From Candidatus Stammera capleta (GTDB taxonomy: Bacteria > Pseudomonadota > Gammaproteobacteria > Enterobacterales > Enterobacteriaceae): DNA of 64,000 nt. The translations under genes and the position numbers were made by a program. Under the pieces are notes generated by a model, which worked only from the letters and a program-made list of their open reading frames with translations, did not search any database and was not told the origin of the DNA. This document shows, piece after piece, positions 2,345 to 53,387 of the stretch (position 1 is the first letter of the stretch; each line of letters starts with the position of its first letter). Location of the stretch: contig CP144815.1 of NCBI GenBank assembly GCA_036689405.1, positions 159,073 through 223,072 on the forward strand, given 5' to 3'.

Positions 2345-4222
2345 TTAAAAATAAATTAATTTATTAATAATATTATTATATTTTTTATTTTTTCTACTTA
2401 TACTATTTAAAAATATATTTTTATTAGAATAAATAGTAACTTTTTTTTTAGCTCTAGTAATAGCAGTATATAATATTTCTTTACTTAATAAATAAGAAAA
2501 ATAATTTGGTAAAATTAATAAAATATGATCAAATTCAGATCCTTGAGATTTATGTACAGTAATTACTCAAGTTAATTTTCAATTAATAAAATTATTAAAA
2601 TAAATAATTTTACAATCATTATTAAAATTAGAAAATAAAATTTTTATTATATTATTATTATAAATAATAAATCCTATATCTCCATTAAATATATTTAAAT
2701 CATTATTATTTTTAGTAATAATAATAGGTTGACCAACATAATAAATTTTATTTTTTTTAAATATATATTTTTTTATATATTTATTTAAAAATAAATTATT
2801 AATATACTTATTTAAGTAATTAGTACCTAATTTTGAATTTTTAATTAAAGAAATAATTTGAAATTTATTAAAATAATATAATAATTTATTATATTTCATA
2901 TTTTTATTATTTAAATAATTAATATAATATTTATATTTTCTTAAACATAAATTAATTAAAAAATTATAATCAAATTTATCTGAATCATAAAAATTTATAT
3001 TACAATTAAAATTATTTTTAATAATAAATTCATCAATTTTATTATAATTACCACAATTTATTAAATTAGAAAATATATTTAAATATTTATTTTTTTTAAA
3101 TCTATAATTTTTTAATAAAAATGATACATTATTATTTAATTTATTAATATTTATAAAAAAATTATAAAAATTAAATTTTCTTTTAAATAAAAATTTTAAT
3201 AATTTTTTTTTTTTTTTAAACAAAGAATAATTATAATTACATATTTTATTTAATAATGAACAAGATTCTATAGGCCCTATTTGATTACTATCACCTATAA
3301 ATATTATTTTTAAAAATTTTTTTTTTAATAAAATAAAAATATAATATAATGTAACTACATCTATCATAGAAAATTCATCTATTATTAAAATACTAAACTT
3401 TAAATCATCATATTCTTTAATATTTACTTCATTAAAATTTAAATTATAATTTAACAATTTATGTATTGTTATTGCTTTATTAGGTAAATTAATATAATAT
3501 TCTTTTTTAATATTTAATAATTTATAATTTTTTTTTAATATATTAGTTAAATTAGAAGAAGATTTTCCAGTAAAAGAAACTATTTTAATAAAATCTTTAT
3601 CTTTTATTTTATATATTTTATATAAAAAAATAATTAATTTAATAATAAGAGTAGTTTTACCAGTTCCTGGTAAACCAGAAATAAAAGATATTTTATTAAA
3701 AAAAACATTAAATGTACAAATTTTTTCATATACATTAAAACAAAATTTTTTAAAATATTTAAATATATAAATAATACTTTTACGTTTTATATTTTCTTCT
3801 TTATTTAAATTTTTTTTTAAAAAATTAACTATATAATTTTCATAAATTCAAAATTTATATAAATAAATATAATCCTTATACAGTATAAAAGGAGTTATAT
3901 TATTTTTATAATATCAACTTATACAATTATATTTAAATAAAATATTTACACTATCATATATATTTATATATTTATTAAAAAAATATATTAAAAAATTATA
4001 TATATATTTAGTAAATATATCTTTACTTAAAATTTTAAAAATCGGAAGACATATATGTCCTAATCTACTAGATAAACTAATTAAAAAACTAAATAACATA
4101 ATAACAGAATAATCAAAATTATTTTTCTTAAAATAAAATTTAGAAAAATATATATCTAATAAATTAGCCTCTTTTTTTTTATAACATGATCATAAAAAAT
4201 TTTCTATTTCATTAAAATACAT
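2345..4222 (-). CDS. recD: Exodeoxyribonuclease V alpha subunit (RecD helicase)
   Basis: One frame runs from ATG 4222 to TAA (tta 2345-2347). It joins track ORFs 3914-4099 and 2579-3457. Gaps 3458-3913 and 2348-2581 were checked and contain only TGA interruptions. Motifs: RLGHICLP, PFILYKDYIYLYKFW, Walker A ISGLPGTGKTT, VHKSQGSEFDHILLILP, YTAITRAKKKV. Confidence 0.93.
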
Positions 4223-4234
4223 AATTAATATTTA

Positions 4235-7200
4235 TTATATTTTTAATAAATTATTTAATTTATAAATTAATTTTTTATTAGGTTTAATATACAAAATACC
4301 ATTATAAGATCTATAATTGTTTTCAATATATAAACCTCTTAAAAAAATATAATATATACCGCCAAAATTAATAGAATAATTATAATTTTTTACATTTAAA
4401 CTTAAATAATTATGTAAAGCTATAGAATATATATGATATTGAATATCATATCTTTTTAATATCATATTGTTTATAATATTTTCTTTATTATAATATAAAA
4501 TATTATTACCAAATCAACTTGATTTATAATCAACAATATAATATTTATTTTTATAAAAAAAAATTAAATCTATAATACCATTTAAATATCCTTTAATAAA
4601 ATTTTTTATATTTAAATTATCACATAAACATGAAATATCATCATATTTTTTTATAATATAATTAAATTTTAAAAAATTAATTTTTTTAATATATAAAATA
4701 AAATCAAATTCTTTTAATATATTATCACATTTAATATTTTTTAAACTTATATTTAATGGATATAAAACTACATTTAATAAATTAAATAATATTTTCTTTA
4801 TATTAAAAAAATATTTTTTTTTAATATTAAAATCATATATATATTTTAATAAAAAATTATTATCTATATCAATATTAAAATTTATTTTTTCCATAACTTT
4901 ATGAAAAAACAAGCCTAAATTTTTACCTTTAGGTAAATTTAAAAAAAATATATTATTATTTAAATTATTATTAATATTATTATTAGATAATATATTTTTT
5001 TTATTTAATAAAACAATTTTAGAATAATTAATTATTCTTTTTATATTTATAATATCTTTACATTTAAAATTATTCTTATGTAAAAAATATTTAATAATAT
5101 AAAAATTATTTTTTTTTATATAATTTATAATATTAATAAATTTAAAATTAATATATTTACATTTTCTAAAAATAAAAATTTTTTTATTGATCTCAGAAAA
5201 ATTAAATTTTCTATTATTACCTATAATTCTACCTATAGAACTAAAACAAAATTTAAAATTTTTATTAAATACTTTATATAAAACAATATTACAAATATAT
5301 ACAGATCTAGTAATAGATACATATAATAAACGCATTTCTTCAGAAATTAATTCTTCATTCATTAAATTATTATATTTTTTAAAATTCAAAAAATCTAAAT
5401 TAGTTCTACAATTTTTACGATTATGATATATATTATAATTATTATATTTATTTAAAAAAAATATAAAAGGCATTCAAACTATATTATACTGTAATCCTTT
5501 TGATTTATGAATAGTAGATATTTTAATTCCATCATCTTCATAAGAAAATGAACGTAAATAATATTCTTTATTATCATTATTATTATTATATATATCATTA
5601 ATCTTTTTATTTAATCAATTTAATAATAATAATTTATCATTAAATAAATAATATTTTTTTTGTAAAATTTCAGATATATGTAATATATTTACATTATATT
5701 GTTCATCTTTATAATTTAAAAAATTAGTTTTTATTTTATTTTTTAAAAAAGAATTTAATAAACAATAAATACCATTATTATTTCATATATTATCATAATT
5801 GTAAAAATCATTTATAACTTTTTCATATATAAAATCATCATTAATAATTTTATCTAAATTACTTAAATCATAATTAAATAAATTAGTAGATAAAGCATTA
5901 CGTATATTTAATTTAGAATTAGGAAAAATTATAGCTTTTAATAAAAAAAAAACTTCTTTAGCTTCTAAAGAATTAAAAATATTACTTTTATTTAATATAC
6001 AATTAACAGGTAAAAAAAACTTTTTTAAAACATCAAAAAAAATTTTTATTTCATAATTCTTATGTACTAATATACAGACATCAGAGGGAATTATTTTTCT
6101 TTTAAAATTATTATTTTTATATAAAAAAATATTATTAGAATTTAAAATTTTATATATTTTTATAGAACAAAATTTAGCTATTTTATATTTATAATTTAAA
6201 CTATTTAAATTATTTAATATAAAAAAATTAATACTATTAAATATTTTATTATTATTTTTAATAATTAAATTTTTATTTTTATAAGAAGGTAAAGTTAATA
6301 AATAATTAGCATCTTTAAAAATGAAAGGGTTATTTATTCTAGTAAATAAAAAATTTATACTTTTAACTAAGAAAAAAGAAGATCTTCAATTTATATTTAA
6401 AATATATAAAAAATCTATATTATTTTTAGATTTAATATAATTAAATATATTAGCACCTCTAAATGTATATATTGATTGTTTAGGATCACCTATAAATATT
6501 ATTTTAGTATTATTCAAAATATTATTTATATATATATTATTAAATATATTAAATTGTAAAAAATCTGTATCTTGAAATTCATCAATTAAAGATATAGGAA
6601 AATTATTTCTAATAATATTAATAAGTATATTATTTTTATCATTACTTAATATAAAATTTAATTTATTTATTAAATCATTAAAACTAATAAAATTATTTTT
6701 CTTTTTATAATAAAATATATTTTTTTTAATATATTTTAAACATTTAAATATAATAAAATTATATAAATCATTAATTCTAATATATAATTTTTCTATATAT
6801 AAAAAAATATTTTTAATATTTGAATTAAAATAAAATTTATATTTTATAATATATTTATATCTAAATTGTTTTAAACAATAAGGAATATAAAAATTAATAG
6901 TTTCCTTATTACACCATAAATTTATATTTTTAAATCAAATATCAATTATTTTTTTATTATATATATTATAAAAATTATTTAAATTAATAAAAAAAATATA
7001 AACTTTTTTATAATTTTTAATTCATATTCTTTTAAAATTATTAATATAAATAATAATTTTATTATAACAATCTTCTATAGAATTATATTTAATTACATTA
7101 ATAAACTTAAAATCTATAAAATTTAAAATAGGATATATAAAATTATATAATTTATCTGGATTAGATCAATAAGAAAAAACTATTTTACTTAAATTATAAG

Positions 7201-7721: not shown

Positions 7722-10700
7722 TTAATATTTTCTATTATTAATTATTAAATTATTAAAAACTGGTAATAACCAATTTTCTATTTCAGATATTATAAATTCA
7801 ATATTTAAAAAATTATAATATTTTTTAATTACATAAGATATATAAATATCATCTATTTCCCCTTTAATAAAAAAATTTCCATACAAAGTATTAAATAATT
7901 TTTCTTTAGCTTTATTTAAACAATATTCATTTAAAATCTTTTTTTTATTAAAACCATAAGAAGAAAAAATTCATATATTAGATGATTTAGGTAAAAATAA
8001 TAATGGATAATTACAACCATTTAAATATGCATTTACATATTTATTAATATATTTTATACATATATTTTTATTTAAAGGTTTAAAACATCATATTCCATTA
8101 TATCCATATAAATAACTACAACTATTACCTTCAATATAACAATATATTAAATGATCTATTCAAAATAATAAAGCATCTATTAAATTTAATTTTTTAGGTA
8201 ATCATTTAAATAAACCAAATTTATCATATCTATATATATAACCTTTTATAAAAAAATTATTAAATTTAAAATTAATATTTATTCTATTTATTTTAAAATA
8301 ATATTTTTTAATATTATTAACTAGAAAAAAAATATTTTCTTTTTCTTTTTCTCATAATATATTACCTAAAAAACTTAATGGTAAAAAATTTAAATGTTGT
8401 AAATATAAAAAAATATTTTTATTATATTCATATTTTAATAAAATATTTATAATTTTATATCTAATTAAATAAATTCTTTTTATATTTAAATTAAAAAATT
8501 CATTTTTATTAATATAAATATCAGAAATAAAATAATTAATTTTATTAAAAAAATATAAAAAATATTTTATTGGATTTGTTCAAAAATTATGTAATTGTAT
8601 TAAATTAATAATATATTTACCTTTATATTTATTAAAATAATAATTCCTATTTACATAATTTAATATATTTAAATTATATTTTTCTTTAATTATTTTCTTT
8701 TTAATGTATATACTTTTTTTTTTATTTAATTTATAAAAATCAATTTTTTTTATAAATGTATCTATATAATTTTTAAAAAATATTAATAATATAGAAGGAA
8801 AACAAAAATTATTTTTTATAAAACAAAAATTAACATAACTAATATACAATATATTACAAAATAGAATTTTTTGTAAAAATAAATATTTATTATAACCTAT
8901 TTTATCACGATCACCTAATCTTGGATTAAAATTAATTAAATTAAAATCACAATAAACTTTATTTTTAAGAAATATATTTTCGTTCATTCCTATTAAACAT
9001 GTAATTTTAAAAAATAAAGATTCAGAATAAATAAATGAACAAAAATTTATACAATCTATAGAATAAATTTTTTTTTTATTTTTATATTTTAAAAAATTAA
9101 TTAAAATTTTTTTAAAAATATTTATATCTATATATTTATTAAATTTACATATATTATAATTTTCTAATATATTAATAAAATTTTTTTTATTTAAAAATAT
9201 ACTTTTATTAATATATTTTTTATAAAAAAAAACATTTATAAATTTTATACAAATAAAAACTCAATCATTAAATAAATATTTTTTATTCAAAATATCTTTT
9301 CAATATAATACTTTATAAATAAAATCACATATTTTTTCAATTAAATTATAATAAAAATTATTAGATAAAAAAGTATAAGGAATAATATTATTTCAAATAC
9401 AATATTCATTATTTATACAAAAACCTAATAATATTCTTCTTAAACTATTTATTCAAGTTAAATAATTAAATTTTTTATAATAAAACATATTATTTTTTAA
9501 ATTTATATTTAAACCTATATTTTTAATAATATATATTATTATTTTTAATTCCTCATAATTTATATTAAATTTTTTAAATATTATTTTTTTTTTTAAAAAA
9601 CATAATAATTCAGTAAAATTATATTCTAAATTTGATATATTTAATAAATTTAAAAATATATTTAATAATTCATTTTCATAAATATAATTATTATCTTCTA
9701 AAATTTTATACGGTAAATATTTTTTATATTTTAAATCAGAAAAAACAGAATTAATATACGAATAATATATATTAATATCAGTAACATTAACTATTATATC
9801 ATTTATATTATAATTTTTATTTATAATTAAATCTAACAAAAAATTTTTTAATTTTTTAACTTCTTCTAAATACCCACAAGATCTACTTATTACTATAGAA
9901 TTATCTTTATTTTTATAACTATATTTTTTATTAAAAACAATATCTTTAAAATTTAATATATTATATTTAATAATATTTAATTTATTATTATTATTAATAT
10001 TTAAAAAATAACTCACTTCTTTAATATTTAATTTTAATAATAATAATAAAGTTTCAGAAAAACTTTTTCCATAATTTAACAATAATGAATTATAATTATT
10101 TTTAATATTATAAAATTTATAAATAAAAGAATATTTTTTTTTTCTTTTCAAAAAAATATTTTTTTTATTATCAAAATAAAATTTTTCATATCAAAATTTA
10201 TATGATGGATTAAATAAAAAATAATAAACATTTCTATATTTAGATATTGAATATAAAATATCTAAATGAATAGGAGGTATAAATGATATATTAAATAAAC
10301 AAATATAATTAATTATATTTTTAGGGAAAATAAAATTTTTATTTTTTAATATTTTTAAAATTTTTATATAAATATCAGATTTATTTCACTTATATGAAAA
10401 ATTATTAATAAAATATTTTACTATTTTTCTTCATAATATAGATTGTCATTTTTGATGAATAAAATTATTAATATTTTTTATATATCTATAATTTTTTCAT
10501 TCATATAATCAATCTATTCTATACATTAAATATTCATCATATATATTAGAAATTTTAAAAGATAAATTAAATAATTTTTCATAATTATAATCATCTTTTA
10601 AATAATTTTTAATAAATAAAAACTCTTTTAAATCAATAACTTTAGGTAATATATTAAATATTACTCAAACTAAATTATATTTATTAAAATAATATTTTTT

Positions 10701-10949
10701 TGATATATCAGGTATAATATTTTTACAAAATTTTCATATAAAATCACCAACTAATAAAAAATTAAAGTTTGCACATATACCTAATTTTTCAGCTAAAAAA
10801 ATTTTTAAATTTAAAGATATATTTTTATTAGAAATTAATATAAATATTTTTGATAAAAAAATATTATTTATATTATTTTCTTTTTTTATAATAGATAATA
10901 TATTTCTTTTTAAAATATCTAAATTATTAGATTGATATAATGTAAACAT
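7722..10949 (-). CDS. recC: Exodeoxyribonuclease V gamma subunit (RecC)
   Basis: The gene runs from ATG 10949 to TAA (tta 7722-7724). Track ORFs 10734-10949, 9453-10151 and 8580-8987 share one frame. All gaps (7725-8579, 8988-9452, 10152-10733) were checked and contain only TGA. N-terminus MFTLYQSNNLDIL ~ E. coli MLRVYHSNRLDVL. It lies directly upstream of recB (ptrA absent). ~1075 codons. Confidence 0.88.
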
Positions 10950-11476
10950 ATATTTAAAAAAACAAATAATATATTTTTAATATAAATAAATTTATCCATA
11001 ATTATTGATAAAAATAATAAGAAAATACAAAAAAAATACTCATTTTTTTTATTAAAAAATAAAAAAAAAATAGGAATTCTAAATTTAAATTTATATGGTC
11101 ATAAAAAATTTATACCTTTATAAGTAAACATATCACATAAAATATGACTAAAATAACCTAAAAACATAATATATATTATGTTAGAATTAATATTTAAAAA
11201 AAAAAAATTTATATATAAAACAAATAAAACAAAAAAAATTAAACCAAATAAACTATGAGTAATAGTTCTATGTCCAAATAAATTATATATTATAATAGAA
11301 ATAAATTTTAATTTATTACCTAAAAAAGATTTAGGATGATCTATATCAGGTAATACACATGATAAAAAACAAAAAGGAATAATATATAATAAATATAAAA
11401 TATTAAATAAATTTAAAATTTTTAAAAAAAATATTATAAAAGATAAACAAAAAATTAAATGATTTTTTATACACAC
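10919..11476 (-). CDS. ydjM: YdjM/DUF457-family membrane-bound metal-dependent hydrolase
   Basis: Start is GTG 11476. Motifs: CVLPDIDHPKSFLG, FGHRTITHS, GYFSHILCDMFTYKGINFLWPYKFKFRIPI (E. coli: LLWPCRWRFRLPIL). The W is TGA at 11099-11101. Reading through it gives ~185 codons ending at TAG (cta 10919-10921), close to the ~196 of E. coli YdjM. The 3' end overlaps the recC start. Confidence 0.8.
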
Positions 11477-11490
11477 AAAAATTCCTTTAT

Positions 11491-11574
11491 AATATATAAT
11501 TATTATATATATATATGTAATATATACATATATATATATATATATTATATATTATATATATATAATATAATATT
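11491..11574. repeat. (TA)n-rich low-complexity tract in the divergent ydjM / thrS intergenic region
   Basis: This is nearly pure alternating TA with a few G/C interruptions (tatatatatgtaatatatacatatatatatatatatattatat...). It lies between two divergently transcribed genes, so it presumably carries both promoters. No specific -10/-35 can be singled out in this composition. Confidence 0.5.
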
Positions 11575-11609
11575 AATTTTAAAAAATACATATAATAAAT
11601 AATATAAAT

Positions 11610-12812
11610 ATGTTAAAAAATAGAGATCATAGAGTATTAAATAAAAATTTAAATTTATATCATATTAGTAATATATCTCCAGGAATGGTTTTCTGACATA
11701 ATAACGGATTAATACTTTTAGAAAATATTAAAAAAATAATAAGAAAAAAATTAAAAAAATACAAATATCAAGAAGTAAGTACAACATTTTTAATTGACAA
11801 AAATATGTGAATTAAAAGTGGTCATTGAAAAAATTATAAAAAATATATTTTTTATACAAAATATAAAAATAAAATATTATGTATAAAACCTATGAATTGC
11901 TTAGGACATATAGAAATATATAAACAAAAAATAAAATCCTATAAAGATTTACCAATTAGAATAGCAGAATTTGGAATATGTCATAGAAATGAAAATTCTG
12001 GATCTTTACATGGATTAATGAGAACAAAATTATTTACTCAAGATGATGCACATATATTTTGTATACCTAAAAAAATAGAAATAGAAGTATTAAAATGTAT
12101 TAAAATGATTTATGAAATATATAAAATATTTAATTTTAAAAATATAAATATATTTTTATCAACAAGACCAAAAAAATATTTAGGTAATAAAAAAATATGA
12201 AATATAATAGAAAAAAAAATTATTAAATTATTAAAAAAAATAAAAATAAAATTTAAAATTAAACATAAAGAAGGAGCTTTTTATGGTCCAAAAATAGAAT
12301 TTATTTTAAAAGATTTTTTAAATAGAGAATGACAATGTGGAACTATACAAATAGATTATTTTTTACCAAAAAAATTAAATATTACATATTTAAATAAAAG
12401 TAATAAAAAAAAAAATCCTATAATTATACATAGAGCAATTTTAGGTTCTTTAGAAAGATTTATAGGAATTATTATAGAAGAATATAATGGAAAATTACCT
12501 TTATGGTTAGCACCTATTAAAACAGTAGTAATAAATATTTCATTAAAAAATTTAAAATATTCAAAATATGTATTAAATAAATTAATAAAAAATAATATTA
12601 ATTCTATAGGAGATTTTGAAAATAAAAAAATAAATTTCAAAATAAGAAAATATATTTTACAAAAAATACCTTATATAATAATATGTGGTAATAAAGAAAA
12701 ATCATTAAAAAAAATAAGTGTAAGATATTATAAAAATAAAAATAATATATATATAATATCATTAAAAAAATTTATTAAAAAAATTATTTATAAAATAAAA
12801 AAATATAAATAA
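11610..12812 (+). CDS. thrS: Threonyl-tRNA synthetase, catalytic and anticodon-binding domains only (~400 codons)
   Basis: ATG 11610 gives [33 protein letters not shown], which aligns to E. coli ThrRS from about residue 241 (RDHRKIGKQLDLYH..PGMVFWHNDG). Further motifs: [53 protein letters not shown]. The upstream frame is closed by TAA 11580-11582. Stop is TAA 12810-12812. Confidence 0.93.
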
Positions 12813-12822
12813 GGATAAAACT

Positions 12823-13363
12823 ATTAAAAATTATAAAAAAAAAAGATATTTTAAAAAATATAAAATTAACAATGAAATTAAAAGTTATAAAATAAAGTTA
12901 ATAAATAATAAAGACAAAAATAAAAATATAATTTTAACAAAAGAAGCATTAAAAATAGCTAAAGATCTTAATTTAGATTTAGTAGAAATAAATCCTAACT
13001 TTAATCCACCAATATGTAAAATATTAAATTATGGAAAATATATATATAAAAAAAAAAAAAAATAATAAAAAACATAAAAACAACAAAAAAATACAAATAA
13101 AAGAAATAAAATTTAGATTTAATACAGATAAAAATGATTATAATATAAAAATAAATAATATAATAAAATTTATAAATAAAAAATATAAAATTAAAATTTC
13201 AATTATATTAAGAGGAAGAGAAATAATACATAAAAATTTAGCAATAGATATGTTAAATAATATAAAAAAAAAAATAAAAAAAAATAATAATAAAATTATT
13301 TTTATAAAAAAAATCACAGAAAATAGACAAATTTCAATGATATTAATATCTAAAAAAAAATAA
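12823..13363 (+). CDS. infC: Translation initiation factor IF-3, reading frame broken inside an A15 tract (13048-13062)
   Basis: The N-domain frame (ATT 12823, preceded by AAGGA 12811-12815) reads KINNEIKSYKIKLI...LDLVEINPNFNPPICKILNYGKYIYKKKKK and stops at TAA 13063-13065. The C-domain (IQIKEIKFRFNTDKNDYNIKINNIIKFI...ILRGREIIH...) is in the next frame, open from 13028 to TAA 13361-13363. There is no in-frame ATG/GTG/TTG ahead of the N-domain, consistent with the classical AUU start of infC. Confidence 0.85.
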
Positions 13364-13364
13364 T

Positions 13365-13562
13365 ATGTTAAAAATAAAAAGTATTAAATCAATTAAAAAA
13401 AGAATTAAAAAAACTTCTTCAGGAAAATTAAAATTTAAATGTTGTAATTTACGTCATATTTTAACAAAAAAAAAAAAGAGAAGAAAAAGAAAATTAAAAA
13501 AAAAAAAAATAGTAAATAAAACAATCAGTAAAAAAATAAAAAAAATAAATCCATATTTATAA
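13365..13562 (+). CDS. rpmI: 50S ribosomal protein L35
   Basis: [36 protein letters not shown] ~ E. coli [36 protein letters not shown]. It follows infC as in E. coli. Confidence 0.95.
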   Translation: [65 protein letters not shown]

Positions 13563-13581
13563 TAATAAATAGGTAAAGATT

Positions 13582-13929
13582 ATGGTTAGAATAAAAAGAG
13601 GCGTAACTGCACATAAAAAACACAAAAAAATAATTAAAAAAGCAAAAGGATATTATTCCTGTAGATCAAAAACTTATAAATCAGCAAAACAAGCAGTAAT
13701 AAAAGCAGGACAATATTCATATAGAGATAGAAAACAAAAAAAAAGATATTTTAGAAAAATATGAATTTTACAAATAAATGCAAAAGTAAGAAAATATGGA
13801 TTAACATACAATCAATTTATATATAAAATAAAAAAAATTTTTAATATAAATAGAAAAATATTATCTGAAATAATAAATAAAGAAAAAAAAAGTTTTAATA
13901 AAATAATATCATTAATTAAAAAACAATAA
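13582..13929 (+). CDS. rplT: 50S ribosomal protein L20
   Basis: [25 protein letters not shown]...[14 protein letters not shown](TGA)ILQINA is typical L20. Stop is TAA 13927-13929. Confidence 0.95.
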
Positions 13930-13950
13930 ATAATTTATTTTAAATAAAAA

Positions 13951-14925
13951 ATGTTAAATTTTAATAAATATATAAATAAATTTAATAAAAATATTAAAAA
14001 TAAGAATGATATAAAATCTATAGAAAAAATACGCATAAAATACTTAGGTAAAAAAGGATATATAAATATATTAATTAAAAATATTAAAAAAATATCAAAA
14101 CAGAAAAGACCTAAAATAGGTAAAATAATAAATAAAATAAAAAAATATATAAAAAATAAAATATATTTAAAAAAAAAATATATAATTAAAGAAAATATTA
14201 AAAAAAATGAAGTATATATAGATATATCTTTACCAGGAAGAAAATATTTTATAGGTAAAAAACATATTATTACTCAAACTTTAAATAAAATAGAAAAATT
14301 TTTTCAAGAATTAGGATTTTTAAATATAACAGGTAATGAAATAGAAAATAAATATTATAATTTTGATTTATTAAATGTAAACAAATATCATCCTTCAAGA
14401 TCAAAAAAAGACACATTTTGAATTAATAAAAATACTTTATTAAGAACTCAAACATCATGTTTACAAATAAGATATATGAAAAAAAATAAACCTCCTATTA
14501 AAGTAATTACATCAGGATGTGTATTTAGAAAAGATTATGATAAAACTCATACACCTGTTTTTCATCAATTAGATTTATTTTTAATAGATAAAAATATAAA
14601 TTTTTCTAACTTAAAATATATAATTATAAAATTTTTAATACATTTCTTTAACAAAAATATAAAAATTAAATTTTTACCATCATATTTTCCTTTTACAGAA
14701 CCTTCAGCAGAAATATTTATAAAAAACAAAAGCAATAAATGATTAGAAATATTAGGATGTGGTTTAATACATCCTAAAATATTAAATAATTTAAATATTA
14801 ATCCAAATATATATTCAGGAATAGCATTTGGTATAGGAATAGAAAGATTAATAATGATAAAATATAATATAAAAGATATAAAATTATTATATGAAAATAA
14901 TATTAAATTATTAAAACAATTTTAA
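13951..14925 (+). CDS. pheS: Phenylalanyl-tRNA synthetase alpha subunit
   Basis: Track ORFs 13951-14421 and 14476-14742 are in one frame, joined by TGA codons. Motifs: HPSRSKKDTFW, GCVFRKDYDKTHTPVFHQLD, FPFTEPSAEI, GIAFGIGIERL. Stop is TAA 14923-14925. Confidence 0.93.
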
Positions 14926-14940
14926 TTTTTTGGTATAAAA

Positions 14941-17166
14941 ATGAAATTTTATAAAGAATGAATTAAAAAATATATAAAAAATAATTTAAATATTAATAAT
15001 ATAATTAATTTATTAAAAAATAATGGTTTTGAAACAAATTATATTAATATAAATAAAAATAAAAATTATATAATAAAAAAAAATATACTACATAAAATAT
15101 ATTTATTAAAATGAATATGCATAAAAATAAAATATAAAAATAAAATATATAAAAAATATATAAAATATATTAAAGAAAATATAGAAAATAAATATATTTT
15201 AATAAATAAAAAAGATATTAAAAATAATTATTTTTTTTTAAAAAAAAAACAATATCATAAAAAATATATTTTTATACTCTATAAAGAAAAAAATACATTA
15301 AAAGAAAATATTAAATATTTAAATAAAATTAATTTATTAGAAATAAATATACCTTATAATAAAATAAATTGTAATAATATATATTCTATATGTAAAGAAA
15401 TATCAATATTAATAAATAAAAATATTTATTTAAATATAAAAAAAAAAAAAAAGATATATAAATCAAAAATAATTATAAAAAATAAAAATTTAGATAAAAA
15501 TATAATTAATTATAAATATATTATTATAAATAATATTAAAAATATAAATAAAAAAATTTACACAAATTATAAAAACAAACTAAATTTATTAAATATAAAA
15601 ATTAATAATAATATAAAAGATATAATAAATTATATTTTAATAGAATCAGGACAAAAAATTATATATTTAGATTTAGATAAAATAATTAAATATAACAAAA
15701 TTAATAATGAAATTATAAATATAAAAGAAAAATTTTTAATAAAAAAAAACATTGAAAAATATTATATAACACAAAATACTAAAAATTTAATTATAATTTC
15801 TCCATTATATGAATATAAATATATTATTAAAAATAATAATTGTAATAATAAAATTAATAAATATATAAGTAATAGTTATAATAATATACAAAATATATTT
15901 TTACAAAAAACAGCAGAAATAATAAAAAAAAAATATAAAGGAAATATAAATAAAATTAATATAATATATAATTTTAAAAAAAAAAAAAAAACAAAAATTA
16001 TATTAATAAAATATAAATACATAAAAAAAAAAATTGGATTTAATATTAAAAAAAAAAAAATATTAAATATTTTAAAATTAATAGGATATAAAATAATTAA
16101 AAAAAAAAAAAAATATTTTATTATTAAAATACCAAAATGAAAAAATAATATAAAAATAATAGAAAATATTATTTCTGAAATATTAAAAATATATGGATAT
16201 AATAAAATTCCAATGAAAAATTTTAGTACAAATATTATAATTAAAAAAAAAAAAAATATATCAGAAAAAATAAATAGTATAAAAAATATAGTAATAAGTA
16301 TAGGTTATAAAGAAATAATAAATTTTCAATTTATAAGTAAATATAAAGAATATTTATTTTTTAATAAATATAAAAATATAAAAATATATAATCCTTTATC
16401 TAAAAATACGAAATTATTAAGAACTTCATTAGTTCCAAATATGATAGATTCTTTATCTTTTAATATTAGAAGACAACAAAAAAGTATTAAATTTTTTGAA
16501 TTAGGAACATGTTTTAAATTAAAACAAAATAATAAAATAAAAGAAAATAAAAAATTATCTTTAGTAATATATGGATATAAAAATAAAAATAAATGATATA
16601 TAAATAATAATCATTTTGATTTTTATGATATAAAAGGAGATTTAATATATATATTTAAAAAAAAAAATAAAGAAAAATATTTAGATATAAAAAAATCTAA
16701 TAATAAAATATTAGATAAATACCAAAACGCTGATATATTTTATAAAAAAAAAAAAATAGGCTATATAGGTATGTTAAATAAAAAAATACAATATAAATAT
16801 TCTTTAAAATATCCAGTATTTTTATTTGAAATAAAAATTAAAAATATATTATTTAAAAAAAAAATAAATATAAAAAAAATCTCAAAATATCAAAATAATA
16901 TAAGAGATATAACATTAATTATAGATAAAAAAATATCAATAAATAATTTAATTAAATTATGTATATCAATAAATAAAAAAAAAATAAAAAAAATTAGTAT
17001 TATTAAAATATATAATAATAAACTAAAAAATATAAAAAAAAAAAATATAACATTAAGATTAAATATACAAGATAATAATAAAACATTAAAATCAGAAGAA
17101 ATAAATAATATTATATATAAATGTAAAGAAAAATTAAAAAAAAAATTTAATGCAATAATTAATTAA
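14941..17166 (+). CDS. pheT: Phenylalanyl-tRNA synthetase beta subunit
   Basis: Starts MKFYKEW(TGA)IKKY ~ E. coli MKFSELWLREW. The whole 14941-16213 segment was read codon by codon and is intact despite four A15-A16 tracts. Motifs: LLEINIPYNKINCNNIYSI, NYILIESGQKI, IPKW(TGA)KNNIKIIENIISEILKIYGYNKIP. ~741 codons. Confidence 0.92.
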
Positions 17167-28023: not shown

Positions 28024-28058
28024 AAAATAGTATATTAAATATAATAATATAATAAATT

Positions 28059-28142
28059 GGAGGTATGGCCGAGTGGTTTAAGGCAACGGTCTTGAAAATC
28101 GTCAACGTTTATCGTTCGAGAGTTCGAATCTCTCTACCTCCG
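28059..28142 (+). tRNA. tRNA-Ser (anticodon UGA, reads UCN), long variable arm, no encoded CCA
   Basis: GGAGGTA acceptor pairs with TACCTCC, followed by discriminator G. Anticodon stem ACGGT/ATCGT carries loop CT-TGA-AA. Long variable arm; T-arm AGAGTTCGAATCTCT. It is a sharp GC island in an AT background. Downstream sequence is TTTAT, not CCA. Confidence 0.9.
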
Positions 28143-28351
28143 TTTATATTTTTTTTTAAAAAAAAAATAATTAAAAAATAAAAAAAAATAATTTATATTT
28201 AATAATAAAAATAATAAATAAAATATATATAAAAATTTTCAAAAATAATACTAATATATTTATATATATAAAAATATTAAAAATATAAAAAATTAAATAT
28301 TTAAATATTATAATAATAATGTAATTTTTTTTTATAATATAAATATATATT

Positions 28352-52234: not shown

Positions 52235-52307
52235 TAGCTATGATGGGAATTGAACCCATGACCTCAGCGTTATGAATGCTGTGCTCTACCAACTAAGCTA
52301 CATAGCC
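52235..52307 (-). tRNA. tRNA-Met (anticodon CAU; elongator type by resemblance to E. coli metT), no encoded CCA
   Basis: Reverse complement: GGCTATGTAGCTTAGTTGGTAGAGCACAGCATTCATAACGCTGAGGTCATGGGTTCAATTCCCATCATAGCTA. It folds as a cloverleaf with a CAU anticodon. It lacks the initiator features (no 1:72 mismatch, no GGG/CCC anticodon stem). A lysidine-modified tRNA-Ile2 cannot be fully excluded from sequence alone. Confidence 0.8.
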
Positions 52308-52313
52308 TTTTAA

Positions 52314-52384
52314 CGGGGGTACCAGGATTTGAACCTGGGATCTCGGGATCAAAACCCGATGCCTTACCACTTGGCTATACCCCA
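52314..52384 (-). tRNA. tRNA-Gln (anticodon UUG), no encoded CCA
   Basis: Reverse complement: TGGGGTATAGCCAAGTGGTAAGGCATCGGGTTTTGATCCCGAGATCCCAGGTTCAAATCCTGGTACCCCCG. It is very close to E. coli tRNA-Gln, with a U1/C72 unpaired first pair. Confidence 0.9.
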
Positions 52385-52390
52385 AAAAAT

Positions 52391-52471
52391 TACGGAAGAC
52401 GAGATTTGAACTCGTATACAATTAAGTACTAGATTCTAATTCTAGTGCGTCTACCATTTCGCCACTTCCGC
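52391..52471 (-). tRNA. tRNA-Leu (anticodon UAG, reads CUN), long variable arm, no encoded CCA
   Basis: Reverse complement: GCGGAAGTGGCGAAATGGTAGACGCACTAGAATTAGAATCTAGTACTTAATTGTATACGAGTTCAAATCTCGTCTTCCGTA. Anticodon stem CTAGA/TCTAG carries loop AT-TAG-AA. This matches the leuW type, and its neighbours Gln and Met match the E. coli metT-leuW-glnU...metU cluster beside miaB. Confidence 0.88.
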
Positions 52472-52514
52472 AATATATTTTATATAAAAAATAAATATAT
52501 TATATAATAATATC

Positions 52515-53387
52515 ATGAAAAACAAACTATTTTTATATTTATTAAAATATTGTAAAAATTTATTTAAAAAAAATAATATATATTATGGTCATAATACTTA
52601 CAATTATTTATCAGAAACAATACATTTATTATATTCAATTTTAAATATTAATATAAATAAAAAATATAATAAAATAAATAATATATATATAAATAAAAAA
52701 AAAAAAAAAAAAATAATTAAATTAGCAAAATTAAGAATTAAAAAAAGAATACCTATTGCATATTTAACAAAAAATACATGATTTTGCAAAAAAAAAATAT
52801 ATATAAATAGAAATGTTATAATTCCAAGATCTCCAATTTCAGAAATAATAAATAAAAAACTAATAAAATTAAAAAAAAAACCTAAATATATTTTAGATTT
52901 ATGTACAGGAAGTGGATGTATAGCTATAGCATGTTCATATCTATATCCTAAATCTTATATAGATGCTTCTGATATTTCAACTAAAGCTTTAAAAGTAGCA
53001 AAAAAAAATATTTTTTTACATAAAAAAAATAAACAAATAAAAATAATAAAATCTAATTTATATAAAAATATAAAAAAAAAATACGATTTAATAATATCAA
53101 ATCCACCTTATTTAGGTAAAAAAGATATAAAATATTTAACAAAAGAATATTATTATGAACCTAAAATAGCATTAATAACAAAAAAAAATGGATTATATAT
53201 AATACAAAAAATAATTAATCAATCATATAATTTTTTAAATAAAAAAGGATACTTAATATGTGAAACAGGGCATCAAAAAAAAAAAATTATAAAAAATAAT
53301 AAAAAAATAAAATTTAAATGATTTAATTTAAGTAATAAAAATAGTAAAGTTTTTTATATAAAAAAAGAAAATTTAAATTTTAAATAA
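52515..53387 (+). CDS. prmB: Ribosomal protein L3 glutamine N5-methyltransferase
   Basis: RIPIAYLTKNTW(TGA)FCKKKIYINRNVIIPRSP ~ E. coli PrmB [30 protein letters not shown]. SAM motif LDLCTGSGCIAIA and catalytic ISNPPY are present. Stop is TAA 53385-53387. PrmC/HemK is a less likely alternative. Confidence 0.8.

What the first reader, a model, noticed from the sequence alone, without database searches (positions are those of the whole stretch)
13021..13066. infC (IF-3) reading frame is broken inside a 15-nt poly(A) tract in the interdomain linker
The N-terminal domain frame (ATT 12823 ... NPPICKILNYGKYIYKKKKK) hits TAA at 13063-13065, immediately after A15 (13048-13062). The conserved C-terminal domain (IQIKEIKFRFNTDKNDY...ILRGREIIH) continues in the next frame through to 13363. 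A tract of A14 or A17 would give one continuous IF-3.

IF-3 is essential, and every other long A-tract I checked in this window is in frame. There are four candidate explanations:
- Rescue by transcriptional slippage (or ribosomal frameshifting) on the A-run, a mechanism described for poly(A)-interrupted genes in Buchnera and Blochmannia.
- A genuinely split IF-3, with the C-domain re-initiated at ATG 13031. The C-domain carries most IF-3 activity.
- A homopolymer-length sequencing or assembly error.
- A polymorphic tract within the symbiont population.
Basis: partly seen in the sequence, partly recalled or inferred. Interest (0 to 1): 0.7.

Follow-up and report, generated by a model that had tools for sequence, protein, structure and literature searches.

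The report
Unreliable one-base frameshift in infC
The break in the essential initiation-factor-3 gene of this beetle-gut symbiont rests on one extra A in a 15-A run, and a second assembly of the same strain (probably the same sequencing run) has 14 As and an intact gene, so it is most likely a homopolymer-length ambiguity rather than a broken or recoded gene.

Summary
In this 13.7% G+C, UGA=Trp genome (Candidatus Stammera capleta, tortoise-beetle symbiont), the infC N-domain frame (ATT 12823) ends at TAA 13063-13065, directly after A15 (13048-13062). The C-domain continues in the +1 frame to 13363. A14 or A17 restores one IF-3.

The frameshift is not reproducible. The Logan assembly of run SRR23946980 matches the window at every other base over 11561-13291 but has A14 in the tract. 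That gives a 179-aa IF-3 that aligns without gaps to the closest relative's protein.

All seven related Stammera chromosomes examined have single-frame infC. The four closest carry 14 bases here (A8-T-A5 in three, A8-T-A4-G in one), so one T>A change yields A14, not A15. Both halves show dN/dS of 0.18-0.30, like intact relatives. Among 22 runs of at least 10 nt compared between deposited and Logan assemblies, this is the only disagreement.

Best reading (about 0.75): in-frame A14 templates exist, and A15 is a miscalled consensus or a co-existing slippage variant. A fixed A15 rescued by transcriptional slippage, as in Buchnera and Blochmannia, remains possible (about 0.15). A split IF-3 or a pseudogene is unlikely. 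Interest is low.

The parts
12823..13363 (+). infC (translation initiation factor IF-3). It is one 179-codon gene if the A-tract is 14 nt.
   Evidence: Pfam IF3_N and IF3_C. Gene order thrS-infC-rpmI-rplT-pheS-pheT matches the relatives. The A14 version aligns without gaps to the 179-aa IF-3 of CP144817, 91.6% identical.
12811..12825 (+). Shine-Dalgarno-like AAGGA (12811-12815) and the non-canonical ATT start codon (12823-12825).
   Evidence: GGA and ATT are invariant columns in the alignment of four Stammera loci. An AUU start is the classical infC feature (own knowledge). IF3 discriminates against AUU starts (PMC9723500).
12823..13065 (+). N-terminal-domain reading frame as deposited. It ends at TAA 13063-13065.
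   Evidence: Translation. IF3_N 79.5 bits.
13048..13062 (+). Poly(A) tract in the Lys-rich interdomain linker. It is A15 in the window and in the NCBI deposit, and A14 in the independent Logan assembly.
   Evidence: Close relatives have A8-T-A5 (CP144817, CP144813, CP043985) or A8-T-A4-G (CP144769), which is 14 nt in each case.
13056..13056 (+). Approximate position (within 1 nt) of the window-lineage T>A substitution (AAT Asn to AAA Lys) that fused an A8 run and an A5 run into one long tract.
   Evidence: Codon alignment polarised with CP144813 and CP043985 as outgroups. At alignment column 82 the window has AAA and all three relatives have AAT.
13028..13363 (+). C-terminal-domain reading frame (+1 relative to the N frame), with ATG 13031-13033 and stop 13361-13363.
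   Evidence: IF3_C 72.2 bits. On record from the NCBI contig as the 110-aa ORF P0001.
11610..12812 (+). thrS (400 aa, code 4), the upstream neighbour. It served as the handle for finding the same-strain Logan contig and the close relatives.
13365..13562 (+). rpmI (L35), the downstream neighbour. Its start lies 1 nt after the infC stop.
   Evidence: Pfam Ribosomal_L35p for the orthologue in relatives.

Best explanation
This is the ordinary infC gene of a Candidatus Stammera capleta strain. It has an AUU start, an N domain, a Lys-rich linker and a C domain.

In this lineage a single T>A change (Asn AAT to Lys AAA) fused an A8 run and an A5 run in the linker into a 14-nt poly(A) tract. A tract of this length slips easily during replication, during library PCR and during transcription.

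The deposited chromosome carries one A too many (A15), which splits the gene on paper. In-frame A14 templates also exist. A15 is therefore either a miscalled consensus (about 0.45) or a length variant co-existing with A14 in the symbiont population (about 0.30). Either way, full-length IF-3 is made conventionally from A14 copies, and no recoding mechanism has to be invoked.

Shown: the A15 versus A14 discrepancy, the in-frame state of the relatives, the ancestral 14-nt state and the intact domains.

Inferred: which length is the majority in the reads, and whether the variation arose in vivo or in vitro.
For: 1. Logan contig SRR23946980_2937 (L010, 1,730 nt) equals window 11561-13291 except for one base. 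The tract is A14, which gives one open frame through both domains.
2. The 110-aa C-half ORF P0001 is recorded only from NCBI, not from Logan. Other proteins of this strain (thrS P0242, rplL) are recorded from Logan.
3. The closest relatives, CP144817, CP144813, CP043985 (thrS at least 90% identical, 93% for the cluster representative CP144817) and CP144769 (about 86%), all have single-frame infC with exactly 14 nt where the window has A15. One T>A substitution therefore predicts A14. The more distant CP144780, CP144785 and CP144810 are also in frame.
4. With A14 the protein is 179 aa and aligns without gaps to the 179-aa protein of CP144817.
5. Neither half has any other lesion. dN/dS against CP144817 is 0.18 for the N part and 0.30 for the C part, within the range seen between intact relatives (0.07-0.38).
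6. Deposited and Logan assemblies agree at every other position compared: 10,550 nt in five pairs, 22 runs of at least 10 nt. The single disagreement is this tract, the longest run compared.
7. The Stammera study that published the related chromosomes used PCR-amplified Illumina libraries and MEGAHIT (10.1101/2023.12.12.571295); the Logan run number sits in the same series as one of its runs, so this genome probably comes from it. Such libraries give length stutter at A/T homopolymers of 15 nt and more (PMC11878640).
Against: - PCR stutter is biased towards deletions (PMC11878640). A true A15 giving many A14 reads is therefore easier to picture than a true A14 giving an A15 consensus.
- The deposited genome probably belongs to a study whose authors curated their assemblies against reads.
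- I could not see reads, so which length is the majority is not established.
- I could not prove that the NCBI chromosome was built from SRR23946980 rather than from another individual of the same host. Identity is 4,101 of 4,102 positions compared.
Confidence: 0.75

Rival explanations
1. The genome really is A15, fixed or nearly so. Full-length IF-3 is made because RNA polymerase slips on the T15 template. A fraction of the mRNAs then carry A14 or A17, as shown for poly(A)-frameshifted genes of Buchnera and Blochmannia. The AUU start of infC, which IF-3 itself represses, would raise initiation when IF-3 is scarce and so partly offset the low yield.
For: - The deposited chromosome has A15.
- Stutter bias towards deletion could explain a spurious A14 in the k=31 Logan assembly.
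- Both halves are intact and under constraint.
- There are precedents in essential information-processing genes. dnaX, dnaG and pth are frameshifted in poly(A) tracts in Blochmannia vafer, and about 30% of transcripts are in frame (PMC3017870). Similar frameshifts occur in Providencia siddallii (PMC10540940).
- The ATT start is conserved, and IF3 discriminates against AUU.
Against: - An independent assembly of the same strain has A14.
- None of the seven relatives shares the frameshift, so it is not a conserved feature.
- The ancestral 14-nt state predicts A14 from one substitution, whereas A15 needs a second event.
- All the other ~100 long coding runs in the window are kept in frame. This shows that selection notices DNA tract length, so slippage is only a partial rescue.
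Confidence: 0.15
2. The genome is A15 and the frame is restored on the ribosome. This would occur by a +1 slip of tRNA-Lys within the AAA repeats, or by a -2 slip at the last AAA before the TAA stop. Either event is a form of ribosome sliding on poly(A).
For: Perfect AAA to AAA re-pairing is possible anywhere in the tract. A stop codon directly follows the tract, and a stop could pause the ribosome. The idea of sliding on lysine-encoding A runs comes from my own knowledge and was not checked here.
Against: - The site is not conserved in relatives.
- No Shine-Dalgarno-like element was seen by eye upstream.
- No RNA structure lies downstream: the minimum free energy is 0 kcal/mol for 13040-13140, no better than shuffles.
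- There is no Rfam hit in 11000-15000.
- The A14 assembly applies here as well.
Confidence: 0.04
3. IF-3 is really split or decaying. Either the N domain is made from ATT 12823 and the C domain separately from ATG 13031, or only one piece is made, or the gene is a young pseudogene.
For: The C-terminal domain alone can sustain slow growth of E. coli (PMC9723500). A gene caller did call the 110-aa ORF.
Against: - ATG 13031 is the out-of-frame overlap of the conserved Tyr-Gly codons (TAT GGA). It is present in all relatives, where it opens only a short dead-end frame.
- No Shine-Dalgarno-like sequence precedes it.
- The N domain remains under purifying selection (dN/dS 0.18).
- infC is intact in all related Stammera chromosomes examined.
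- The A14 assembly argues against any split.
Confidence: 0.03

Closest known systems
Poly(A)-tract frameshifts in Buchnera aphidicola and Blochmannia genes rescued by transcriptional slippage (Tamas et al. 2008, as cited in PMC3017870; also Providencia siddallii, PMC10540940)
   Same: The host is an extremely AT-rich, reduced insect-symbiont genome. A 1-nt length change sits inside a long A-run in an otherwise intact, essential information-processing gene. The run is long enough for RNA-polymerase slippage.
   Different: In those cases the frameshifts were confirmed in genomic DNA, and several are conserved between strains or species. Here the frameshift is absent from an independent assembly of the same strain and from all seven relatives. 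No transcript data exist for this host.
Homopolymer-length ambiguity in PCR-amplified Illumina libraries (PMC11878640)
   Same: The tract is an A/T homopolymer of about 15 nt, and the related Stammera genomes were sequenced from PCR-amplified libraries. Two assemblies of what is probably the same data differ by exactly one repeat unit.
   Different: Published stutter is biased towards n-1. On that basis the in-frame A14, not A15, would be the expected artefact. The direction of the error is therefore not settled.
Canonical gammaproteobacterial infC with AUU start and IF-3 autoregulation
   Same: The gene shares the ATT start after a Shine-Dalgarno-like AAGGA, the IF3_N-linker-IF3_C architecture and the thrS-infC-rpmI-rplT operon order.
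   Different: The linker here is almost pure Lys and Asn codons, and it includes the 14- or 15-nt A run. Autoregulation has not been tested in Stammera.
Programmed frameshift genes (prfB +1, dnaX -1, Thermus dnaX transcriptional slippage)
   Same: A slippery homopolymeric site is followed by a stop codon in the zero frame.
   Different: The site is not conserved, no stimulatory element was found, and there is no evidence that two products are needed.

Membership tests
infC / IF-3 | IF3_N and IF3_C domains in that order | tested here: met
   PF05198 scores 79.5 bits and PF00707 72.2 bits. Both are found in the A14-fused protein.
infC / IF-3 | Non-canonical AUU start and position between thrS and rpmI-rplT | tested here: met
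   ATT 12823 follows AAGGA and is invariant in four Stammera loci. Gene order is shown.
infC / IF-3 | One continuous reading frame | tested here: inconclusive
   The frame is broken in the window and in the NCBI deposit (A15). It is continuous in Logan contig SRR23946980_2937 (A14) and in seven relatives.
Symbiont genes with poly(A) frameshift rescued by transcriptional slippage | Single indel inside an A/T run of at least 9 nt in an otherwise intact gene | tested here: met
   A15 at 13048-13062, with no other lesion in either half.
Symbiont genes with poly(A) frameshift rescued by transcriptional slippage | Frameshift reproducible in genomic DNA | tested here: not met
   An independent assembly of the same strain has the in-frame A14. 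Reads could not be inspected.
Symbiont genes with poly(A) frameshift rescued by transcriptional slippage | Frameshift shared by related strains or species. This is typical of the selected cases but is not obligatory. | tested here: not met
   CP144817, CP144813, CP043985, CP144769, CP144780, CP144785 and CP144810 are all in frame.
Symbiont genes with poly(A) frameshift rescued by transcriptional slippage | mRNA pool containing frame-restored transcripts | not testable with these tools
   No RNA-seq reads are available here.
Programmed ribosomal frameshift site | Conserved shift site with a stimulatory element (Shine-Dalgarno-like sequence or downstream structure) | tested here: not met
   The tract is interrupted in all relatives. 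The downstream 100 nt are unstructured, and there is no Rfam match.
Split two-polypeptide gene | Dedicated start signal for the downstream half | tested here: not met
   ATG 13031 arises from the conserved TAT-GGA codons. It is present out of frame in all relatives and has no Shine-Dalgarno-like sequence upstream.

The most novel reading that the evidence does not exclude
The A14/A15 disagreement reflects real length heteroplasmy, or a fixed A15, in the Stammera population. An essential translation factor would then be carried partly or wholly on out-of-frame templates. It would be kept functional by three things acting together: slippage at the tract (replication and transcription), complementation between genome copies, and the IF-3/AUU autoregulatory loop that raises infC initiation when IF-3 runs short. 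This would be the first such case in Stammera, an extracellular symbiont that reads UGA as Trp. It would also be a natural test of how far a feedback-controlled gene can tolerate a frameshifted tract.
Probability: 0.3. Interest if true: 0.4.

Novelty: not a real feature. Interest (0 to 1): 0.15.

Why it matters
The main value is as a caution. In genomes with 13-15% G+C there are about 100 A/T runs of at least 10 nt per 64 kb. A single miscounted A can therefore turn an essential gene into an apparent pseudogene or recoding case.

In this clade infC is easy to lose from annotation for a second reason. It starts with ATT, and in several genomes there is no in-frame ATG, GTG or TTG for a gene caller to use.

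If the A15 allele proved real, it would add Stammera to the list of symbionts that tolerate poly(A) frameshifts in core translation genes. That mechanism is already well documented, so the gain in knowledge would be modest.

Tried and rejected
- I first took the window for Zinderia (13.7% G+C, UGA=Trp). This was rejected because the nearest loci are Candidatus Stammera capleta chromosomes.
- Exact-protein look-ups for rpmI and for the 110-aa C-half ORF found nothing. Repeat look-ups of rplL with a 10-kb flank also failed. I therefore could not obtain the 21.7-kb Logan contig as a larger baseline of long runs, nor the accession of the 244,218-bp chromosome.
I worked around this with a homology search, which returned the exact protein P0242.
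- The IF-3 homology search had missed the close relatives, because their infC is not called by gene finders (ATT start). They were recovered through thrS instead.
- The genome-contig scan with the fused IF-3 returned only five loci, and the window's own genome was not among them.
- A search for a frameshift-stimulating RNA element gave no Rfam hit and no structure.
- Lineage-specific substitution counts downstream of the tract (3 synonymous, 3 nonsynonymous) are too few to carry weight by themselves.

Full report
**1. What is in the sequence**

The window has 13.7% G+C. Its genes are continuous only under genetic code 4 (UGA=Trp). In the region of the finding, the frame that starts at ATT 12823 encodes an IF3_N domain (79.5 bits). 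An AAGGA at 12811-12815 precedes the ATT and overlaps the thrS stop codon. This frame reads ...NYGKYIYKKKKK and stops at TAA 13063-13065.

The run of A is exactly 15 nt, at 13048-13062. The +1 frame is open from 13028 to the stop at 13361-13363 and encodes an IF3_C domain (72.2 bits). Setting the run to A14 or A17 in silico gives a single protein of 179 or 180 aa with both domains. A13, A15 and A16 do not.

The tract is one of many. The window holds 108 A/T runs of at least 10 nt, and 36 of them are at least 12 nt. Of the 108, 105 lie inside long code-4 ORFs, and none of the others coincides with a frame break.

**2. Whose genome it is**

The C-half ORF is on record as a 110-aa protein (P0001) from a 244,218-bp NCBI contig. 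The nearest loci are chromosomes titled 'MAG: Candidatus Stammera capleta' (CP144780, CP144785, CP144810), and they share the gene order recC-ydjM-thrS-infC-rpmI-rplT-pheS-pheT.

Stammera is the extracellular pectinolytic symbiont of cassidine leaf beetles and is known to read UGA as Trp (PMC8629427; PMC10540940). The study that published these related chromosomes assembled fifty such genomes with MEGAHIT from PCR-amplified Illumina libraries (NEBNext Ultra II; HiSeq 3000 or NextSeq 2000). The authors then curated them by hand (10.1101/2023.12.12.571295). The Logan run number for this strain falls in the same series as a run from that study, so this genome probably comes from it, but I did not obtain its accession.

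Genome-size arithmetic against their Table S2 suggests the host is Chelymorpha gressoria. That is only an inference.

**3. The decisive comparison**

A search with the window's ThrRS found its exact sequence (P0242) in both NCBI and Logan, the independent assemblies of public sequencing runs. The Logan contig SRR23946980_2937 (L010, 1,730 nt) corresponds to window 11561-13291. It is identical at every position except one: the infC tract is A14. With A14 the gene reads straight through both domains.

Two further observations fit this. P0001 is recorded from NCBI only, whereas other proteins of this strain are recorded from Logan. A second Logan contig of the same run is identical to the window over 2,372 nt.

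As a baseline I compared deposited and Logan sequences for three other Stammera strains. They are identical over 3,011, 1,453 and 1,984 nt. Across all five pairs that makes 10,550 nt and 22 runs of at least 10 nt. The only disagreement is the infC tract, which is also the longest run compared.

**4. Relatives**

The first IF-3 homology search appeared to show no close relative, with at most 66% identity. This was misleading. In the close relatives infC is simply not called by gene finders, because it starts with ATT and has no early in-frame ATG, GTG or TTG.

Reading the DNA downstream of thrS shows single-frame infC in all four close relatives: CP144817, CP144813 and CP043985 (ThrRS at least 90% identical; 93% for the cluster representative, CP144817) and CP144769 (about 86%). 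Where the window has A15 they have A8-T-A5 (three genomes) or A8-T-A4-G (one genome). That is 14 nt in each case, followed by the same TAAT.

Polarising the differences with outgroups shows a window-lineage T>A change (Asn AAT to Lys AAA) at this spot. That single substitution creates A14. A15 needs an additional insertion.

The A14 protein is 179 aa, has no gaps against the 179-aa protein of CP144817, and is 91.6% identical to it. The three more distant chromosomes are also in frame and have interrupted A-runs.

**5. State of the two halves**

Neither half carries any other lesion. Pairwise dN/dS against CP144817 is 0.18 for the part before the tract and 0.30 for the part after it. This lies within the range found between intact relatives (0.07-0.38). 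The window-specific changes downstream of the tract number 3 synonymous and 3 nonsynonymous. Neutrality would give about 5 nonsynonymous per synonymous change, but these counts are too small to carry weight alone.

**6. Interpretation**

Two assemblies of one strain, probably built from one read set, differ by one A. Both lengths must therefore be present among the reads. Three situations could produce this:

- (a) a true A14 and a wrong consensus in the deposit;
- (b) a real A14/A15 mixture in the symbiont population;
- (c) a true A15 with heavy n-1 stutter that misled the k=31 assembly.

The 14-nt state of the relatives, the one-substitution route to A14, the essentiality of IF-3 and its intact domains all favour (a) or (b). 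In both of these, normal in-frame templates exist. I put them together at about 0.75.

The known deletion bias of PCR stutter (PMC11878640) and the authors' curation keep (c) alive, at about 0.15-0.2. In case (c) the most likely rescue is RNA-polymerase slippage on the T15 template. The precedent is dnaX, dnaG and pth of Blochmannia vafer, where about 30% of transcripts from frameshifted genes were in frame (PMC3017870). The conserved ATT start, against which IF-3 itself discriminates (PMC9723500), would give a compensating feedback. This last point is inference.

Selection clearly still cares about DNA tract length. All the other ~100 coding runs of at least 10 nt in the window are in frame. 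Slippage can therefore be only a partial rescue.

**7. Rejected readings**

- Programmed ribosomal frameshift. The site is not conserved, the 100 nt downstream are unstructured (minimum free energy 0 kcal/mol), and Rfam finds nothing in 11000-15000.
- Split IF-3 re-initiated at ATG 13031. This ATG is the out-of-frame overlap of the conserved Tyr-Gly codons TAT-GGA. It occurs in every relative, where it opens only a short dead-end frame, and no Shine-Dalgarno-like sequence precedes it. The C domain alone can sustain slow growth of E. coli (PMC9723500). Even so, the N domain here is still under constraint.
- Pseudogene. This is unlikely for a gene that is kept intact in all related Stammera chromosomes examined.

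**8. Verdict**

The sequence observation is right. The frameshift is not reproducible and is most likely not a fixed feature of the organism. At most it would be a new member of the well-known class of poly(A) frameshifts in symbiont genes. Interest is low. Inspection of reads across 13048-13062, with neighbouring in-frame tracts as stutter controls, would settle the question.

Noticed in passing
window 11610-12812: ThrRS is only 400 aa and has just the catalytic and anticodon-binding Pfam domains (PF00587, PF03129). The N-terminal TGS and editing part found in the 642-aa Buchnera enzymes is missing. Some other Stammera strains have 580-631-aa versions, so the N-terminal region seems to have been lost within the clade.
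   Followed up: partly
L009 3714-4253 (CP144817), L013 3711-4256 (CP043985), L014 about 3710-4240 (CP144769): infC is intact in these chromosomes, but it is not among the gene calls held for them. It starts with ATT and has no early in-frame ATG, GTG or TTG. This is an annotation gap that could make infC look absent or non-core in pangenome tables.
   Followed up: partly
L009 5832-6203 (CP144817): pheT is recorded as 613 aa in this genome. It is 742-748 aa in CP144813, CP043985 and CP144769, and 746 codons in the window. This may be another truncation or homopolymer problem. The locus held is too short to check.
   Followed up: no
whole window: There are 108 A/T runs of at least 10 nt in 64 kb, the longest being A19 at 52695-52713. 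Of these, 105 are inside ORFs, and 95 of those are poly(A) on the sense strand (Lys AAA repeats). All except the infC tract are in frame.
   Followed up: yes
whole window: UGA is used as a sense (Trp) codon in most genes, for example 18 times in the recC-like ORF at 7725-10976. This fits the published code change in Stammera. infC, rpmI, rplL, rplJ, rplA and rplK contain none.
   Followed up: partly
window 11459-11602 and 13264-13291: The Logan contig of this strain breaks in two places. One is the TA-rich low-complexity spacer between ydjM and thrS. The other is the A11-T-A9 stretch inside infC. These are spots where short-k-mer assembly of this genome fragments.
   Followed up: no
window 52235-52472 and 28058-28143: A cluster of tRNA-Met(CAT), tRNA-Gln(TTG) and tRNA-Leu(TAG) lies on the minus strand, and a tRNA-Ser(TGA) on the plus strand. 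Both stand out as G+C-rich islands.
   Followed up: no
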